Below, piece after piece: positions 5,549 to 22,516 of a DNA stretch of 42,682 nt. The notes under the pieces were generated by a model. That model was not told the origin of the DNA. It searched no databases and worked only from the letters and a program-made list of their open reading frames with translations. Every line of letters starts with the position of its first letter. Within the stretch, counting starts at the first letter, position 1. A program made the translations under genes and the position numbers. Origin of the DNA: a virus (taxonomy: Duplodnaviria; Heunggongvirae; Uroviricota; Caudoviricetes). The stretch lies in IMG/VR virus record IMGVR_UViG_2703718834_000012; one strand, written 5' to 3'.

Positions 5549-6630
5549 GTATTGAATCCCGCCAGGTTCTGGTAGAAGGCATATGGCTGAACGGAGAATG
5601 CTTCAGGCGGCATCAGCGTCATGCGTGCATGGGTGCCGTAGTCATCGCGCATATAGGTGACTTCTGCCAGTAGCAATTCAGTCTTCGGCAACCGTAAGGT
5701 GGGAAGATCAACGGGGATCAATGTGTTTGGTTCCCACAGTTTCCCGTCTTTATCCCGCCAGGAATCGATGGTTACCGAGAGCTGTTTTGAACGTCCGTAC
5801 CGCCGGTTCATTTCCCAGTCGATCGCACTTTGTGCCTGTTGAGTAGCCATCAGGGTACTTTCCACAATCGATATATGTTTTCGGTACCGCATGCGGGCGG
5901 CCTCCGGATCTCTCGCCGTTGCCAGAGTCACAGCGTCATAGGCCGTATCAGGCGAATACCCTGCAATTGGAGAAACGCTCATTGATACACCGACATAATC
6001 TGAAAACCTGTCAGCCATCGATTTGCGGTAGTATGCCTGCTCGACATTTACCCCTTCGGCTATCCCACTTGCCGCACGACGTGTTCCCACCCGGGTCAGT
6101 AACAGGTTTCCATCGGGCTGATCGTAGTAAAGCAGAGCAGACCATCTGGCCACCCGATCGATGACTTCTTGCGGAGACTCACCCCAGTTCAGAGTGAACT
6201 GGGGTACCTTCACAAGTTCATCAACATCCGTGGTTACGGTGATGCCGTAGTAGGATGCCAGGCGAGAAGCAATTTCAAGCGCATTACTGGCATTGATGAC
6301 GTTGTTAGGCCACTCGGCTGAGCAATCCACCAGGTCCTGACATTTGCTCCTGCCCGTGGCGCGGACCTCATGGCGGGAGCGCGATAGTGCGGGTTCCCAG
6401 TCATCAACATATCCCGTCAGTGTCAGATCATCTCCGATACGAACTTCACAAGACATTCCCTCTTCAACGAGTTGACGATCTTCGTTGCCAGGGAAGTAAT
6501 CCATTAGCCCAAGATCGAAATCAGAGGGAAAACGCTCAATACCCCGCGTTACCCGGACAGAATCCCACCCCTCGATGATTTTGCCGTCGACCGTCAAAGA
6601 AACAACATCCAGATCGCTGTCTGCATTCAT
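5545..6630 (-). CDS. Tail/baseplate hub protein (Mu gp44 / P2 gpD-like)
   Basis: 361 aa; synteny downstream of DNA circulation protein. Confidence 0.6.
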   Translation of the reverse strand: MNADSDLDVVSLTVDGKIIEGWDSVRVTRGIERFPSDFDLGLMDYFPGNEDRQLVEEGMSCEVRIGDDLTLTGYVDDWEPALSRSRHEVRATGRSKCQDLVDCSAEWPNNVINASNALEIASRLASYYGITVTTDVDELVKVPQFTLNWGESPQEVIDRVARWSALLYYDQPDGNLLLTRVGTRRAASGIAEGVNVEQAYYRKSMADRFSDYVGVSMSVSPIAGYSPDTAYDAVTLATARDPEAARMRYRKHISIVESTLMATQQAQSAIDWEMNRRYGRSKQLSVTIDSWRDKDGKLWEPNTLIPVDLPTLRLPKTELLLAEVTYMRDDYGTHARMTLMPPEAFSVQPYAFYQNLAGFNT

Positions 6631-19001: not shown

Positions 19002-21131
19002 TTATTTCGGCAGGAGTTGCGATATTCGCTTACGTTTGACCGGCGCTGGTTCTTCAATAACCGCACCCGGCAGCTCGTAATTGATTTTTTCTTCCTGTCC
19101 AACTGGCGCTGGCAGGAACTTATCCGGATCGGCTTCGAGGTTGGCGGCCCGGACGTTGAGTTTTAACCCCATATGTTTGAGACCGCACAGCGCGGCATAG
19201 CTGTAAACGAGGCAGTCAAGCGCTTCGTTAGCTCGTCCTGGTATTGCTTCCCAGATACTGTACCGCTGCCCGGAAATGACTTTGTAAACCAGTCGCTCCG
19301 CCAGCAGCTGATTGAAGTACCCGAGATCGCGATCGTCAGGAAAATGCATATAACCCGCAGCGGCGGCGCCAGGTTTGGGTGGCTCAAGATGCAGGCGACC
19401 GCGTATCACGTCTTTCGCTGAGTTAACCCCCAGAATGACAGGGCGGAAACTGGCTTTGCTTTTCGATGATGGTCGTTTGGTCGGCCAGACAGGATTGCGT
19501 TTGCCTCCCTGTGCAGACTCCCCCTTAATTGCCCAGACACGACGGCCAAGACGCTCTTTGGCGAATTCGTATACCTTCTGCGTATGGTGGCCGCCGGAGT
19601 CCATGCACGTTGCCATGATATTCAGGCCGCGCCCGTCACCACGTCGCCAGATCTGTTTCAGGTATGCATCCAGTCGCTTCCAGGGTTCTTCCGTCTCAAG
19701 GTCACCATAAATAACGTCATGCGCGACCGACCACGATTCTTCATCTCTCCCCCAGCCGGTGATCGTAATTTCGAAGCGATCGTCCTGGGTATCAACTCCA
19801 GCTGTTAACAATGCCACCCCGTCCGGAACGACGGCCGGAAATATTTCCCGGCGCGCCAGCAGAACATCAACAGGGAGCTGTTTCCCATGATTAGGTCGGT
19901 GCGGAAGCCCCATCTGGGTATTCCACCACGCCTGTTCCTTATCCGGATCGCCCTTCGCATCGATATATTTTTTCGCAATATCCGACGGCTTATCTTTTTG
20001 CCAGGGGCTGAAAAGCTTGGATGCCTGGTACCCCGCGTGGTGGTTATCGACTGCCTCCTTTCCACAGGAGGGGCAGATTGCGCGATAGACCGCATGCCGT
20101 TCCGACTCTGACCATTGCCAGACCTTTTCAACGCTGCCCTCGTCTGCCGCCCGCCAGGCAAGGTCATAATCCATCAGCGGTGAGTGCCGCTCCCCGCAGC
20201 ACTCAAATGGGCGCGTCTGATGCCATCGAATAGTGTGCAGAGCTCTGAGGCGCTGTCCTTCGGACCAGCCACTACCACAGCATTCGCAATAGAGCATCGC
20301 CGATTTAGTCAGGTGTTTATCTCCCTCTTTCGGCCACTGAACGTGTTTGAAAAAGTCGGGGAACTGGCGGTGGCCACAGTGCGGGCAAACCACAGATGCC
20401 CGGCGCTGATCGGAGTCGGCGTAGCTGTCAGCAATGCGGCTCTCATCCTCCACCGTCGGCGAACAGGCGCGTACAGACAGCCAGGTCAGGCCAAATGTCG
20501 CTGTACGCTCTTCGGCCAGCGCAATTGGATCGCCTTCGCGGGTTATCGGGTACTTGTCCACTTCATCCGCCAGCAGGACACGAATCGGACGACGCGCAAG
20601 GTTATCAGGGCTACCAGCACCCGCCAGCGCCAGAAATCCGCCAGTGAATGCCTTGTAAAGAATGGTTTCTTTCGAGCTTTTCTGTTTCGAATCACCGATG
20701 ATTTTACGCAGTACCGGCGTCACCCTTACCAGCGGGCTAATACGCTCTTTCGAAAACTGTTCAGCGGCTTCTTCTTTCGGCTGCAGCAGCAGTATCGGAC
20801 AAGGATCGAGGTGGGCAAAATAGCCAAAAAGGTTTTCCAGCAGTGCTGTCTTCATCAACTGGGTACAGCACATTACAGTGATGATATGAACCCCGGACTC
20901 CGTCGCGGCAAGCATCGGTCCGCGGGCAATTTCTACCGTCGATGTTTCCCAGTTTCCCGAAGTGCTCCCAGCCTCTTTTGCCAGCTTACGATAGTCATCT
21001 GCCCACTGCGGCACACTGATACGCGGCGGGGGTGTCCAGCCTTTGCGGACGCTTAATTCAAGACGCTCAATCTTCTGCCGGGTTAAACTCTGGCTCTCCG
21101 AGGACTGAGATGTGTTTGTGGACATGTTCAA
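19002..21131 (-). CDS. Terminase large subunit (lambda gpA family)
   Basis: 709 aa; GWGRDEESW and NEALDCLVYSYAAL segments match lambda A; overlaps small subunit 3' end. Confidence 0.9.
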   Translation of the reverse strand: MNMSTNTSQSSESQSLTRQKIERLELSVRKGWTPPPRISVPQWADDYRKLAKEAGSTSGNWETSTVEIARGPMLAATESGVHIITVMCCTQLMKTALLENLFGYFAHLDPCPILLLQPKEEAAEQFSKERISPLVRVTPVLRKIIGDSKQKSSKETILYKAFTGGFLALAGAGSPDNLARRPIRVLLADEVDKYPITREGDPIALAEERTATFGLTWLSVRACSPTVEDESRIADSYADSDQRRASVVCPHCGHRQFPDFFKHVQWPKEGDKHLTKSAMLYCECCGSGWSEGQRLRALHTIRWHQTRPFECCGERHSPLMDYDLAWRAADEGSVEKVWQWSESERHAVYRAICPSCGKEAVDNHHAGYQASKLFSPWQKDKPSDIAKKYIDAKGDPDKEQAWWNTQMGLPHRPNHGKQLPVDVLLARREIFPAVVPDGVALLTAGVDTQDDRFEITITGWGRDEESWSVAHDVIYGDLETEEPWKRLDAYLKQIWRRGDGRGLNIMATCMDSGGHHTQKVYEFAKERLGRRVWAIKGESAQGGKRNPVWPTKRPSSKSKASFRPVILGVNSAKDVIRGRLHLEPPKPGAAAAGYMHFPDDRDLGYFNQLLAERLVYKVISGQRYSIWEAIPGRANEALDCLVYSYAALCGLKHMGLKLNVRAANLEADPDKFLPAPVGQEEKINYELPGAVIEEPAPVKRKRISQLLPK

Positions 21132-21636
21132 TCAGCACCTCTGTCATCCTGTCCGCCGGTACATCCAGATCAGCAGCCATTAGCGGCGCCACCCTGGACG
21201 GCCAGTTAAGCCAGGCATCACGCTGTTGGCGAAAGGCGTTGAATAAAACCTCCTCGGCTGCTGTCAGCTCAATAAGCTGGCCGCTGTCTTTTTCATACTG
21301 CAGCTTTGCCTGCAGGGCCATGTAATTCTCGCGGATACGTCCCGCTTCCTCTCTCGAAAGATCTGCCCCTTCAGTGAGCATTATCTGGCGGACAGTTTTA
21401 TTGATTTCATCACCGTCATCATCGTTATCGCTAACGACGGGAGTTTTCTTTTTCTTCGCGTTCGAGGCGCGCGGGTCTTTGCCATCGCGGTTTTTCTTCA
21501 ATGCCGCATCGCTGGCCTCTACGTCAATCAGGTCTCCGTCCATCACAATGAAGCGCCCGGCTTTAATCCACCGGCCAATTGTTTTGCGATCCACACCTGA
21601 ATGTTGTGCGTACTGACTCTGGTTCATCGTGGTCAT
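21067..21636 (-). CDS. Terminase small subunit (lambda Nu1-like)
   Basis: 189 aa; N-terminal HTH resembling Nu1; adjacent to cos-like repeat array. Confidence 0.8.
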   Translation of the reverse strand: MTTMNQSQYAQHSGVDRKTIGRWIKAGRFIVMDGDLIDVEASDAALKKNRDGKDPRASNAKKKKTPVVSDNDDDGDEINKTVRQIMLTEGADLSREEAGRIRENYMALQAKLQYEKDSGQLIELTAAEEVLFNAFRQQRDAWLNWPSRVAPLMAADLDVPADRMTEVLIEHVHKHISVLGEPEFNPAED

Positions 21637-21784
21637 GGGACATCACCTGGGACATTTTCTGGGGTGGGACATTCGCCTGGGACATTTTTGCCATGTCCCA
21701 CCAGAATGTCCCACTGGAATAAACTGGAATAGCCAGAGCTGGCGAGGTGTCCGTAATGATCGCCAGAGGTGGGACATGGGACAC
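21637..21784. repeat. cosB-like array of GGGACA(T) heptamers (putative terminase-binding sites)
   Basis: At least 8 copies: direct at 21637, 21649, 21666, 21679, 21771, 21778; inverted ATGTCCC at 21693 and 21706; directly upstream of the small-subunit start. Confidence 0.55.
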
Positions 21785-21874
21785 AAATCTGAAAGTTGTA
21801 GCTAGGAAAACACCGCGGCGCGCAATGCCCGTGCCTTACAAAAGGCTCAGGAAGGACCCAAAACCCCTGGGGGG

Positions 21875-22516
21875 CTATCTGGCCGAGCTGATCGCCTCAG
21901 CAATCGCCTGGTGCAGCGCTGAGGGTAACAATGCGTTGACCATGGTGTTTGCCCTGTCCATATAGCCGAGCGTTGGTTTGACTGGAAGCGCGTCTCCAAA
22001 CCGAATGAGCAATTTTGGTGCAGGTTGCTTAATCTTGTCTCTGCGCGTGCCGTTCGGAGAACGTTTTGCCCGTTTCTTCCCTTTTTTGATTTTCGGCTTT
22101 TTTCTCTGCCACACGGCATTCACGCCACCAACGTCACCAATAAATACGTTTGGCTTTGCTTTGAGCTGAGAGAGCTTATTACGCGGCAGGTTGCCGTATT
22201 TATTAAGCTTTATGTCTTTCGGATTAAGCAAAGCACTACCATTAAGCTTGTGCTCTCCGCCGAACTCGAAGGGTTCAAGGTAGCCAGCAGCAGTATCACG
22301 AACAAACACCTTCGCACGAAGGCTGTTTTTCCTGGCACCAACTGACCCTACCGATTTAACTGTAAAAGGTGTTGGATTATCCAGATTCCGCTCAAATGCT
22401 GTTTTTTGGGCCGCTTCTATCTGGCGAACCACTTTAGTCATAGCCTGGGCAGTCGCAAACGGTATTTGCTTCTGCAGCTGTCTTAACTGACTGGAAAGGT
22501 CCTTAAGCGTTGCCAT
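21875..22516 (-). CDS. Hypothetical lysine-rich late protein
   Basis: 213 aa, AGGAGG RBS; KKPKIKKGKKRAKR basic tract; between lysis genes and cos. Confidence 0.5.
   Translation of the reverse strand: MATLKDLSSQLRQLQKQIPFATAQAMTKVVRQIEAAQKTAFERNLDNPTPFTVKSVGSVGARKNSLRAKVFVRDTAAGYLEPFEFGGEHKLNGSALLNPKDIKLNKYGNLPRNKLSQLKAKPNVFIGDVGGVNAVWQRKKPKIKKGKKRAKRSPNGTRRDKIKQPAPKLLIRFGDALPVKPTLGYMDRANTMVNALLPSALHQAIAEAISSAR

What the first reader, a model, noticed from the sequence alone, without database searches (positions are those of the whole stretch)
21637..21874. cos region with an array of GGGACA(T) heptamers in both orientations
At least eight heptamer copies (six direct, two inverted) lie within 150 bp directly upstream of the Nu1-like gene, paralleling the lambda cosB R sites bound by the small terminase subunit. 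A GC-rich tract near 21810-21830 (CACCGCGGCGCGCAATG) is a candidate cosN.
Basis: partly seen in the sequence, partly recalled or inferred. Interest (0 to 1): 0.4.

Follow-up and report, generated by a model that had tools for sequence, protein, structure and literature searches.

The report
Lambda-type phage cos packaging site
This is the DNA-packaging start site (cos) of an E. coli prophage, where eight short repeats most likely dock the small terminase subunit next to the cutting site; it is an ordinary kind of element in a little-studied form.

Summary

- **Repeats.** Window 21637-21784 holds seven exact GGGACAT plus one GGGACAC. The true unit is TGGGACAT. Six copies are direct and two inverted. 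This is the most clustered heptamer in the 42.7-kb window (Poisson P about 1e-16).
- **Setting.** The array lies between a lambda-like cosQ/cosN block and a small terminase gene that RefSeq leaves unannotated (phrog_57). A gpA-type large terminase gene follows.
- **cosN.** It contains GCATTGCGCGCC (21828..21817, minus strand). This is identical to the 12-nt 5' cohesive end mapped for Serratia phage BZS1.
- **Conservation.** Across relatives the heptamers are invariant islands while the spacers diverge.
- **Covariation.** The repeat sequence tracks the helix-turn-helix of the small terminase through at least ten specificity classes, from enterics to Sphingomonas. One E. coli mosaic has swapped only cosB and the N-terminus of the small terminase.
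- **Independence from terS.** A satellite-like E. coli island with no large terminase or capsid genes carries the same cosQ-cosN-heptamer module, away from any terS.

Differences from lambda are short units, eight copies and no recognisable IHF site. No binding or virion-end data exist for this prophage. Verdict: a new member of a known kind, of modest interest.

The parts
21853..21859 (-). cosQ-like element GGGTCCT (conserved as GGGTCCTTCC, 21850-21859)
   Evidence: Single exact copy in the window. It starts 31 nt before the BZS1-type overhang and is the same 7-mer that starts 30 nt before the end of the lambda genome. It is invariant in 14 relatives. GGGTCC is present upstream of terS in 48 of 60 loci across Proteobacteria.
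21817..21828 (-). cosN: predicted 12-nt 5' cohesive end GCATTGCGCGCC. The register is uncertain by 1 nt; the alternative is GGCATTGCGCGC at 21818-21829.
   Evidence: Exact and unique match in the window. It is identical to the annotated cosL of phage BZS1, which was mapped with PhageTerm plus end sequencing (PMC7556043). The core ACGGGCATTGCGCGCCG is invariant in relatives. The alternative register comes from the lambda alignment and from IMG/VR contig L208, which starts at GGCATTGCGCGCC.
21785..21816 (-). Conserved segment between cosN and cosB (I2-like): GCGGTGTTTTCCTAGCTACAACTTTCAGATTT
   Evidence: AGCTA..AA and the T-rich stretch are conserved in relatives. CAGCTA followed by GAAA is conserved across the whole family. 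Lambda has CGCTATTTATGAAAATTTT at the same place.
21771..21784 (-). cosB distal tandem pair, GTGTCCC ATGTCCC (h1, h2), at bp 45-58 from the cohesive end; positional equivalent of lambda R3
   Evidence: Positions. TTTGTGTCCCATGTCCCA is invariant apart from single substitutions in 2 of 14 relatives. At the same position in other lineages there is a tandem repeat of a different sequence that tracks the TerS HTH. Lambda R3 is at bp 50-65 (PMC9026076).
21713..21770 (.). cosB spacer, not conserved; contains the inverted repeat CTGGCGA-N14-TCGCCAG (21739-21766)
   Evidence: Divergent, with indels, in relatives. The inverted repeat is I12. No IHF consensus with one mismatch or fewer.
21693..21712 (+). 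cosB inverted pair (h3 at 21706-21712, h4 at 21693-21699): ATGTCCC on the plus strand, i.e. opposite in orientation to the other six copies
   Evidence: Together with h5 and h6 it forms a 22-nt dyad (I1). Conserved in relatives.
21637..21685 (-). cosB proximal four direct copies (h5 21679-21685, h6 21666-21672, h7 21649-21655, h8 21637-21643). The last copy abuts the terS ATG and follows the AGGTGA ribosome-binding site.
   Evidence: Conserved islands in the alignment. 16-nt direct repeats 30 bp apart (D2).
21067..21636 (-). terS: 189-aa small terminase subunit with an N-terminal winged helix-turn-helix; annotated only as 'hypothetical protein' in RefSeq
   Evidence: phrog_57, E 4.6e-36. No Pfam family. 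AF2 model with beta-helix-helix-beta-beta-helix in residues 3-51. Weak fold matches to Xis, BldC and the lambda gpNu1 DNA-binding domain. RefSeq annotation.
19002..21131 (-). terL: gpA-type large terminase subunit
   Evidence: Pfam GpA_ATPase 2.8e-64 and GpA_nuclease 2.2e-78. 48% identical to the TerL of BZS1 and phiNP.

Best explanation
Window 21637-21859 is the cos site of a lambda-like temperate phage with a lambda-type head module and a contractile tail, integrated in E. coli. It reads on the minus strand in the order cosQ, cosN, I2-like segment, cosB, terS, terL.

**Proposed mechanism (inferred).** The N-terminal winged helix-turn-helix of the 189-aa small terminase binds the TGGGACAT units of cosB. 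The critical contact is probably the tandem pair at bp 45-58 from the cohesive end. The further copies, two inverted and four direct, would assemble several TerS subunits into a nucleoprotein complex. That complex positions the gpA-type large subunit on cosN, where it makes staggered nicks leaving a 12-nt 5' overhang (GCATTGCGCGCC, uncertain by 1 nt). Packaging then proceeds leftward in window coordinates, through terS. GGGTCCT (cosQ), at the downstream cos of the concatemer, serves termination.

**Shown here:**
- the anatomy of the region
- identity of cosN with a mapped cohesive end in a related phage
- conservation of the heptamers against diverging spacers
- covariation of the repeat sequence with the TerS helix-turn-helix

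**Inferred, not shown:** binding, the nick positions in this phage, stoichiometry, and the role of each individual copy.
For: **Gene context.**
- The 189-aa protein is phrog_57 TerS, and a gpA-type TerL follows.
- The prophage has a lysis cassette upstream and portal, protease, decoration and capsid genes downstream.

**cosN and cosQ.**
- cosN is identical to the BZS1 cohesive end.
- GGGTCCT and the flanks ACG..CGCGG line up with the lambda end at the same spacing to within 1 nt.
- The cosQ-cosN-CAGCTA block is conserved in 48 of 60 terS-upstream regions from Gamma-, Beta- and Alphaproteobacteria.

**Footprinting.** In 14 distinct relatives at 65-100% TerS identity, the heptamers are invariant or nearly so. 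The spacers show substitutions and indels.

**Covariation of HTH and repeat.**
- GVDRKTIGRW goes with TGTCCCA
- GVSRKTVTxW goes with GGTAACA
- DVSHTAVxKW goes with GGTTTCA
- GVSRQAAxKW goes with GGTTGCG
- CSDTLVRRA goes with GTTCGCAC
- VSDTLVHRA goes with GTTTGCAC
- CSEGLVRRA goes with GTACGCAC
- CNEALVRRA goes with GTCCGCAC

Pairs of loci that share a motif have 80% identity in the HTH. Pairs with different motifs have 34%.

**A natural mosaic.** E. coli JNQH498 (L007) keeps cosQ/cosN and the C-terminal 60 aa of TerS at 98% identity. Its heptamers are GGTAACA instead, and the first 50 aa of TerS are only about 50% identical.

**Independence from terS.** An integrase-primase island with no terL or capsid genes carries cosQ, cosN and about 11 TGGGACA copies, 3.8 kb from any TerS-like gene. 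The array is therefore not a terS-specific regulatory element.

**Other readings find no support.** No promoter, terminator or Rfam family was detected.
Against: - No experimental data exist for this prophage: no virion ends, no induction, no binding.
- TerS matches no Pfam family, including Phage_Nu1.
- Profile comparison with lambda Nu1 is weak (E 0.005, probability 7.5%).
- No Foldseek PDB hit reaches E <= 1e-3, and the model has a mean pLDDT of only 69.
- There is no IHF consensus site in cosB, so how the array would be bent or looped is unknown.
- cosB and the 5' end of terS are adjacent. Co-inheritance by linkage therefore contributes to the covariation, and C-terminal identity also differs between same-motif and different-motif pairs (0.48 against 0.19).
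- The last heptamers overlap the ribosome-binding site and start codon, so a regulatory side-role cannot be excluded.
- The nick register differs by 1 nt between the BZS1 report and the lambda alignment or contig L208.
Confidence: 0.85

Rival explanations
1. The heptamers are operator sites for a transcriptional or translational regulator of the terminase genes, either TerS acting on its own expression or a separate phage protein. On this reading they are not packaging recognition sites.
For: The last two copies flank the AGGTGA ribosome-binding site and abut the ATG. Direct-repeat arrays are typical of regulators with Xis- or BldC-like winged HTH domains, which are the best fold matches (PMC5859096 title).
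Against: No sigma-70-like promoter was found in 21400-22100. The first pair keeps a fixed distance from cosN in every lineage, at the position of lambda R3. The same array with cosQ and cosN occurs in an island 3.8 kb from any TerS-like gene. In relatives with a short cosB, the only copies are the pair next to cosN.
Confidence: 0.07
2. The functional element is an RNA structure in the late transcript. The inverted heptamers form a long hairpin that controls terS translation, processing or transcript stability.
For: The minus-strand RNA of 21630-21874 folds at -89.7 kcal/mol, z = -2.9 against shuffles. A long hairpin forms from the 22-nt inverted repeat.
Against: Any DNA with inverted copies of a protein-binding site folds this way. 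Relatives with a short cosB have only direct tandem copies and no hairpin. The number and arrangement of inverted copies vary, two in the window and three in the Yersinia/Hafnia group. No Rfam family matches; the only hit is a spurious miRNA at E 0.2.
Confidence: 0.03
3. It is a pac-type site for headful packaging, comparable with the hexamer clusters of the phage P1 pac site, and it yields terminally redundant genomes.
For: Clusters of short repeats flanking a cleavage region are known from P1 pac (my own knowledge, not checked here).
Against: TerL belongs to the gpA family. The closest isolated phage with the same cosN has defined 12-nt 5' cohesive ends. The lambda termination element GGGTCCT is present at the lambda spacing.
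Confidence: 0.02
4. The site has cos ancestry but is a relic in a defective prophage and no longer functions.
For: Some copies sit in degraded prophages. In E. coli HS the upstream minor-tail gene is truncated next to an integrase fragment.
Against: In the window, terS and terL are full-length open reading frames, and the morphogenetic genes from portal to tail fibres are annotated without pseudogene flags in a 99.9%-identical copy. The cos region is 100% identical in many unrelated E. coli strains and highly conserved across genera.
Confidence: 0.1

Closest known systems
Bacteriophage lambda cos (cosQ-cosN-I2-cosB with R3-I1-R2-R1; gpNu1/gpA terminase)
   Same: - Same order of subsites and genes.
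- GGGTCCT lies 30-31 nt before the nick, followed by a 12-nt 5' overhang.
- The flanks are CG| and |CG in the lambda register.
- A GCTA..GAAA..TTT segment follows cosN.
- The first TerS site is at about bp 45-60.
- One set of repeats is inverted relative to the others.
- TerS has an N-terminal winged HTH, and TerL is of the gpA family.

Sources; PMC4669245; PMC9026076.
   Different: - The overhang sequence differs (GCATTGCGCGCC against GGGCGGCGACCT).
- The repeats are 7-8-bp units in eight copies, some in tandem with a 7-bp period, rather than three 16-bp R sites.
- There is no IHF consensus site.
- TerS is not in Pfam Phage_Nu1 and is only marginally similar to Nu1.
Serratia phage vB_SspM_BZS1 and Citrobacter phage phiNP (closest isolated phages)
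   Same: - cosQ is identical and the cosN core is identical.
- The BZS1 cohesive end was mapped as GCATTGCGCGCC.
- TerL is 48% identical.
- A homologous minor-tail gene lies just upstream of cos.

Sources.
   Different: - TerS is only about 33% identical and belongs to the other specificity class, with repeats GGTAACA.
- cosB is short, with three copies in 62 bp between the cohesive end and the terS ATG, against eight copies in 148 bp here.
- In the text passages I searched, the BZS1 paper describes only the cohesive ends, not cosB.
Phage N15 (simple cosB) versus Monarch and lambda (complex cosB)
   Same: This family likewise has short one-to-three-repeat versions (Burkholderiales, Sphingomonas, BZS1) and long multi-repeat versions (enteric class 1 and 2, Achromobacter, L085). 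In both forms the site next to cosN is the constant element (PMC4669245).
   Different: The TerS lineage and repeat sequences are different. The expansions here reach 6-11 copies.
BldC and Xis-type MerR-like winged HTH proteins that bind direct repeats as head-to-tail multimers
   Same: The best structural matches for TerS residues 1-55 are Pukovnik Xis (4j2n), BldC (6amk, 6ama), RacA, and the lambda gpNu1 and phi80 TerS DNA-binding domains. BldC is reported to bind direct repeats as cooperative multimers (PMC5859096, title and abstract). Tandem direct heptamers would suit that mode.
   Different: Those proteins are regulators or recombination directionality factors, not terminase subunits. 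All fold-search E-values are above 0.1, so this is a lead about binding mode and not a demonstrated relationship.
cos-carrying phage satellites (Gram-negative PICIs)
   Same: The E. coli islands L215 and L213 have integrase, primase and a cos at one end, with no morphogenetic genes. That matches the PICI description in PMC9026076. L215 carries the same TGGGACA array.
   Different: The published E. coli PICIs are described as using a cosB of 'completely different sequence' from the helper's, together with Rpp (PMC9026076 abstract). L215 instead copies the phage-type repeats, and both islands encode a TerS-like protein. No helper relationship has been tested.

Membership tests
Lambda-like cos site (gpA-type terminase, 5' cohesive ends) | Adjacent large terminase of the gpA family (ATPase plus endonuclease domains) | tested here: met
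   Pfam GpA_ATPase 2.8e-64 and GpA_nuclease 2.2e-78 on the 709-aa ORF at 21131..19002.
Lambda-like cos site (gpA-type terminase, 5' cohesive ends) | cosN: a nicking site that yields a 12-nt 5' overhang | tested here: inconclusive
   The sequence is identical to the mapped 12-nt cohesive end of related phage BZS1, and its flanks align with lambda. The virion ends of this prophage were not determined, and the register is uncertain by 1 nt.
Lambda-like cos site (gpA-type terminase, 5' cohesive ends) | cosQ: a conserved 7-bp element about 30 bp upstream of the nick | tested here: met
   GGGTCCT at 21859..21853, 31 nt before the overhang. The same 7-mer starts 30 nt before the end of the lambda record. 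It is conserved family-wide. That these 7 bp are cosQ in lambda rests on my own knowledge (Wieczorek and Feiss 2001, which is not held). PMC4669245 confirms only that cosQ is a conserved 7-bp site.
Lambda-like cos site (gpA-type terminase, 5' cohesive ends) | cosB: repeated TerS-binding sequences between cosN and terS, with one set in opposite orientation | tested here: met
   Eight TGGGACA(T/C) copies, two of them inverted. They are conserved and covary with the TerS HTH. Binding itself cannot be tested with these tools.
Lambda-like cos site (gpA-type terminase, 5' cohesive ends) | IHF site (I1) between the first and second TerS sites, as in the complex cosB of lambda, 21, phi80 and Gifsy-1 | tested here: not met
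   WATCAANNNNTTR with one mismatch or fewer has no match in 21637-21874, and the spacer is not conserved. N15 also lacks I1, so this feature is not universal in the family (PMC4669245).
Lambda gpNu1 protein family (Pfam Phage_Nu1) | Sequence membership of the small subunit | tested here: not met
   No Pfam hit at E <= 0.01. hhalign against lambda Nu1 gives E 0.005, probability 7.5%, over residues 4-61 only. The protein belongs instead to PHROG 57, 'terminase small subunit'.
Lambda gpNu1 protein family (Pfam Phage_Nu1) | N-terminal MerR/Xis-like winged helix-turn-helix DNA-binding domain | tested here: inconclusive
   The AF2 model has beta-H-H-beta-beta-H in residues 3-51 at pLDDT 70-79. Foldseek matches include Xis 4j2n (TM 0.62), BldC 6amk, gpNu1 DBD 1j9i (TM 0.52) and phi80 TerS 6hn7, but all have E > 0.1.
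Headful (pac) packaging site | A pac-type terminase and terminally redundant, permuted ends | tested here: not met
   TerL is gpA-type. The nearest isolated relative has defined cohesive ends. The virion ends of this prophage cannot be tested here.

The most novel reading that the evidence does not exclude
The array may be one instance of a family-wide, modular recognition code. Three linked ideas make up this reading.

- **A readable code.** A Xis/BldC-like winged HTH of TerS reads a 7-bp unit in a shared frame (xGTnnCA, or GTnCGCAC). It would polymerise head-to-tail on tandem copies placed at a fixed distance from cosN. Single changes in the recognition helix appear to retune single bases: CSDT goes with TTCGCAC, VSDT with TTTGCAC, CSEG with TACGCAC and CNEA with TCCGCAC.
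- **An IHF-independent architecture.** In enteric lineages the unit has expanded into dyad-plus-direct arrays of 8-11 copies. These could replace the IHF-bent R3/R2 architecture of lambda.
- **Satellite mimicry.** E. coli phage satellites copy the array, or bring their own TerS-like protein with a matching array, to capture the helper's large terminase.
Probability: 0.35. Interest if true: 0.55.

Novelty: new member of a known kind. Interest (0 to 1): 0.32.

Why it matters
**Practical value.**
- It gives the cos site, and therefore the virion chromosome ends and gene order, for a widespread prophage group. The group occurs in E. coli, Kluyvera, Citrobacter, Raoultella, Salmonella and Yersinia.
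- Current annotation does not name the small terminase of this group.
- The conserved GGGTCC-N25-GCATTGCGCGCC signature could be used to find cos sites and cos-bearing satellites in genomes.

**Conceptual value.**
- The natural series of matched HTH and repeat pairs is a ready-made data set on how small terminases choose their DNA.
- It could also guide re-targeting of packaging specificity, for example in cosmid or transducing-particle design.

The biology itself, TerS binding repeats next to cosN, is what the lambda paradigm predicts, so a specialist would not be surprised.

Tried and rejected
- **Phage DNA search.** blastn of 21500-22000 against 50,697 phage records found nothing. Known-phage relatives were reachable only at the protein level.
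- **Family searches for TerS.** Pfam and NCBIfam gave nothing useful.
- **Sequence search of the PDB.** A TerS profile did not find gpNu1; only marginal BldC hits appeared.
- **IHF site.** A consensus scan found no site in cosB. I had expected one by analogy with lambda I1 and dropped it.
- **Spacer palindrome.** CTGGCGA-N14-TCGCCAG is not conserved in close relatives, so I do not assign it a role.
- **Promoters, terminators, Rfam.** The promoter and terminator scan and Rfam found nothing; the single hit, mir-4864 at E 0.2, is spurious.
- **Contig ends as evidence for virion ends.** I asked whether IMG/VR contigs end at cosN. Only 1 of 120 contigs (L208) begins there. The other near-end matches are internal slices of stored contigs. 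This is weak evidence.
- **Primary cosQ paper.** PMC1461673 is not held, so the statement that GGGTCCT is lambda's cosQ rests on memory plus the lambda record.
- **Nick register.** Two-fold symmetry does not decide between the two registers. The flanks CG|...|CG favour the lambda register, while the BZS1 report favours a shift of one base.
Full report
**1. What is in the sequence**

The interval 21637-21874 is the 238-bp gap between two minus-strand genes. One is a 213-aa gene at 22516..21875 (phrog_1924, minor tail protein). The other is a 189-aa gene at 21636..21067.

GGGACAT occurs eight times in the 42.7-kb window, and seven of those copies fall in 21637-21777. An eighth copy, GGGACAC, abuts at 21778-21784. 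Six copies point one way and two (21693, 21706) the other. A T precedes all eight, so the unit is TGGGACA(T/C).

This is the most locally clustered heptamer in the window. The Poisson probability of such a cluster is about 1e-16.

Copies h3-h6 form a 22-nt dyad. Copies h5 and h7 lie within 16-nt direct repeats spaced 30 bp apart.

**2. Context**

The window is an E. coli prophage. It is 99.9% identical to several E. coli chromosomes. The annotation of one such copy shows this gene order on the minus strand:

- antiterminator Q and a DNA methylase
- holin, lysozyme and Rz
- a DUF2513 gene and the minor-tail gene
- the gap under study
- a 'hypothetical protein' and a gpA-type large terminase
- gpW, portal, S49 protease, decoration protein and major capsid protein
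- a contractile tail and baseplate

The 'hypothetical protein' is a small terminase. It matches phrog_57 at E 4.6e-36 and has no Pfam family. The large terminase has the GpA_ATPase and GpA_nuclease domains.

**3. cosQ and cosN**

Read on the minus strand, the gap begins:

...GGGTCCTTCCTGAGCCTTTTGTAAGGCACGGGCATTGCGCGCCGCGGTGTTTTCCTAGCTACAAC...

The lambda record ends ...GGGTCCTTTCCGGTGATCCGACAGGTTACG and starts GGGCGGCGACCTCGCGGGTTTTCGCTATTTATGAAAATTTT. Anchored on GGGTCCT, the two sequences share these features at the same spacing:

- ACG before the nick
- CGCGG after the 12-nt overhang
- a GCTA..GAAA..TTT segment further on

The closest isolated phages are Serratia phage vB_SspM_BZS1 and Citrobacter phage phiNP. 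Their TerL is 48% identical to this one and their TerS about 33% identical.

The BZS1 record annotates cosL as bases 1-12, GCATTGCGCGCC. Its authors obtained this from PhageTerm analysis of virion reads. They confirmed it by comparing phage ends with the prophage junction (PMC7556043).

The joined BZS1 ends read ...GGGTCCTTCCCTGCACTTTTGTAAAGCACGG|GCATTGCGCGCC|GCG.... The window carries the identical core, once, at 21828..21817.

The lambda alignment places the nick one base earlier (GGCATTGCGCGC, with lambda-like CG| |CG flanks). One IMG/VR contig begins exactly there. I therefore give the register as uncertain by 1 nt.

**4. The heptamers are conserved sites**

I aligned 14 distinct cos regions from E. 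coli, Kluyvera, Citrobacter, Raoultella, Salmonella, Ewingella, Rahnella, Yersinia and Hafnia. One further contig is labelled Vagococcus.

The invariant islands are GGGTCCTTCC, ACGGGCATTGCGCGCCG and AGCTA. TTTGTGTCCCATGTCCCA and most of the other heptamers are invariant or nearly so, with single substitutions in a few loci. The sequence between these islands, above all the 58-bp spacer, is free to change and carries indels.

**5. The repeat sequence follows the TerS helix-turn-helix**

*A mosaic relative.* E. coli JNQH498 (L007) has the same cosQ/cosN block, but its heptamers are GGTAACA/TGTTACC in a similar layout. Its TerS is 98% identical to the window's over the last 60 residues and only about 50% identical over the first 50.

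*Close relatives.* Those that keep TGGGACAT have 52-54 of the first 54 residues identical to the window's, even though their linker and spacers have diverged.

*Wider survey.* A scan of one genome per species returned 80 loci. At a fixed place after the conserved CAGCTA..GAAA segment there is a tandem repeat whose sequence tracks the HTH:

| TerS HTH | Repeat | Found in |
|---|---|---|
| GVDRKTIGRW | TGTCCCA | enterics (class 1, as in the window) |
| GVSRKTVTxW | GGTAACA | enterics, Paraburkholderia, Pandoraea, Herbaspirillum |
| DVSHTAVxKW | GGTTTCA | Paraburkholderia, Achromobacter |
| GVSRQAAxKW | GGTTGCG | Sphingomonas group |
| CSDTLVRRA | GTTCGCAC | Cupriavidus, Achromobacter, Chromobacterium, Dyella |
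| VSDTLVHRA | GTTTGCAC | Rhodanobacter (L049) |
| CSEGLVRRA | GTACGCAC | uncultured gammaproteobacterium (L045) |
| CNEALVRRA | GTCCGCAC | Sphingobium (L088) |

Further classes have TTTACAC and GGTTTAC.

Locus pairs that share a motif have 80% HTH identity. Pairs with different motifs have 34%.

Linkage and phylogeny contribute to this signal, because C-terminal identity also differs between the two groups (0.48 against 0.19). Two observations separate the effect from simple descent:

- the mosaic L007
- the recurrence of the same HTH-motif pair in hosts as distant as Xenorhabdus and Pandoraea

**6. Position**

Counting from the first base of the BZS1-type overhang, the distal pair occupies bp 45-58. 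Lambda R3 is at bp 50-65 and N15 R3 at bp 48-60. [quoted passage not shown]

As in lambda, one set of sites is inverted relative to the others (PMC4669245). Unlike lambda, there is no IHF consensus site in the spacer.

Most non-enteric members have only one to three repeats, with 75-120 bp between cosQ and the terS ATG. Enteric members, two Achromobacter loci and L085 have 6-9 repeats across 225-310 bp. This parallels the simple (N15) and complex (lambda, Monarch) cosB types.

**7. The protein**

The AlphaFold model has a mean pLDDT of 69. It shows beta-helix-helix-beta-beta-helix in residues 3-51, then a disordered linker and a helical C-terminal part.

No Foldseek hit against the PDB reaches significance. 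Many of the best-ranked small-domain matches, including the top four, are MerR/Xis-type winged HTH domains:

- Pukovnik Xis
- BldC
- RacA
- the lambda gpNu1 DNA-binding domain (1j9i)
- the phi80 TerS N-domain (6hn7)

hhalign aligns residues 4-61 with Nu1 residues 3-61 at 28% identity, but weakly.

The protein therefore works like Nu1 but is not a member of the Pfam Nu1 family.

**8. Independent support from satellites, noticed in passing**

Searching E. coli genomes with the cos region alone found matches to cosQ/cosN in places that lack a terminase.

*Island between thiM and rcnR.* In NZ_CP027550.1 this island of about 17 kb carries integrase, an Icd-like gene, primase, SSB, ProQ/FinO and PerC regulators. 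It has no capsid, tail or terL genes.

It ends with GGGTCCTTCC...GCATTGCGCGAG...CTAGCTATAAATTTTCAAATTTG followed by about 11 ATGTCCC/TGGGACA copies. The only TerS-like gene on the island is 3.8 kb away and has a different HTH.

*Island near hpt.* A second island, in NZ_CP128594.1, has the same cosQ/cosN followed by TTCACAC x5. It also has a 194-aa protein whose first 70 residues or so are TerS-like while the rest is unrelated.

These look like cos-type phage satellites. They show that the heptamer array travels with cosN as a packaging module. It is not a regulatory element of terS.

**9. Rivals**

- **Operator or autoregulation.** This reading is weakened by the fixed distance to cosN, by the satellite copy and by the absence of a promoter.
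- **RNA hairpin.** The fold has z = -2.9, but that is the expected by-product of inverted DNA sites, and the hairpin is absent from short-cosB relatives.
- **Headful pac site.** This is contradicted by the gpA-type TerL, cosQ and the mapped cohesive ends of BZS1.
- **Relic in a dead prophage.** This cannot be excluded without induction. It is unlikely given the intact genes and the strong conservation.

**10. Verdict**

This is a lambda-type cos site with cosQ, cosN, an I2-like segment and a multi-repeat cosB.

It is a new member of a known kind. The ends of a relative were already mapped. To my knowledge the cosB of this terminase family had not been described, and the BZS1 passages I searched mention only the 12-nt end.

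Its variant features are short tandem units, eight copies that include a dyad, and no IHF site. Interest is modest.

The most useful by-products are the family-wide table of HTH-repeat pairs and the cos-mimicking satellites.

Noticed in passing
L214 about 5800-6090 (minus strand) and L215 1-18200 (NZ_CP027550.1, about 1,656,300-1,673,600, between thiM and rcnR): An island of about 17 kb carries integrase, primase, SSB and PerC regulators but no terL, capsid or tail genes. It ends in cosQ (GGGTCCTTCC), a cosN variant (GCATTGCGCGAG), the I2-like segment and about 11 ATGTCCC/TGGGACA heptamers, the same specificity class as the window phage. A TerS-like 178-aa HTH protein lies 3.8 kb away. It is probably a PICI- or P4-like satellite that mimics this phage's cos.
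   Followed up: partly
L213 5150-6150 (NZ_CP128594.1, near hpt): A second island, with a toprim primase and SSB, has the same cosQ/cosN/I2 block followed by TTCACAC x5. It also has a 194-aa protein whose first 70 residues or so resemble TerS (51% identity) while the C-terminus is unrelated. This may be a satellite-encoded packaging-redirection protein.
   Followed up: partly
L002 and L003, positions 938-1741 (E. coli ECCWS199 and EC2641): In otherwise near-identical prophages, a segment of about 565 bp lies between the minor-tail gene and cosQ, and an opposite-strand ORF annotated at 504 bp (about 167 aa, hypothetical protein) lies within it. That places it at the extreme right end of the virion chromosome, so it looks like a moron.
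   Followed up: no
window 21739-21766; L016, L018, L019 and L020, just after the distal heptamer pair: The non-conserved cosB spacer contains an inverted repeat, CTGGCGA-N14-TCGCCAG, in the window. At the same place the Ewingella, Rahnella, Yersinia and Hafnia relatives carry an unrelated palindrome, GTGCATAnnTATGCAC (perfect in three, one arm mismatch in the Yersinia locus L019). This could be a site for a dimeric accessory factor that stands in for IHF. It is unexplained.
   Followed up: partly
window 21875-22516 (minus strand): A minor-tail or neck-type gene (phrog_1924, E 3.6e-62) sits immediately upstream of cos, at the right end of the packaged chromosome and far from the other tail genes. 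The same arrangement occurs in BZS1 (p72) and phiNP (phiNP_029).
   Followed up: partly
L013 (NZ_JBQPOM010000071.1, labelled Vagococcus sp. WN89Y): A contig assigned to a Gram-positive Vagococcus carries this enterobacterial prophage's cos and terS (89% aa identity, full TGGGACA array). The assembly is probably contaminated or mislabelled.
   Followed up: no
L208 (IMGVR_UViG_3300037466_000051), position 1: A complete metagenomic viral contig begins GGCATTGCGCGCCGCG..., one base upstream of the cohesive end reported for BZS1. This matches the nick register predicted from the lambda alignment. It hints that the true overhang may be GGCATTGCGCGC.
   Followed up: partly
window 21067-21636; L001 20068-20637: RefSeq annotates the small terminase of this widespread prophage group only as 'hypothetical protein'. 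It has no Pfam or NCBIfam model, although PHROG 57 recognises it.
   Followed up: yes
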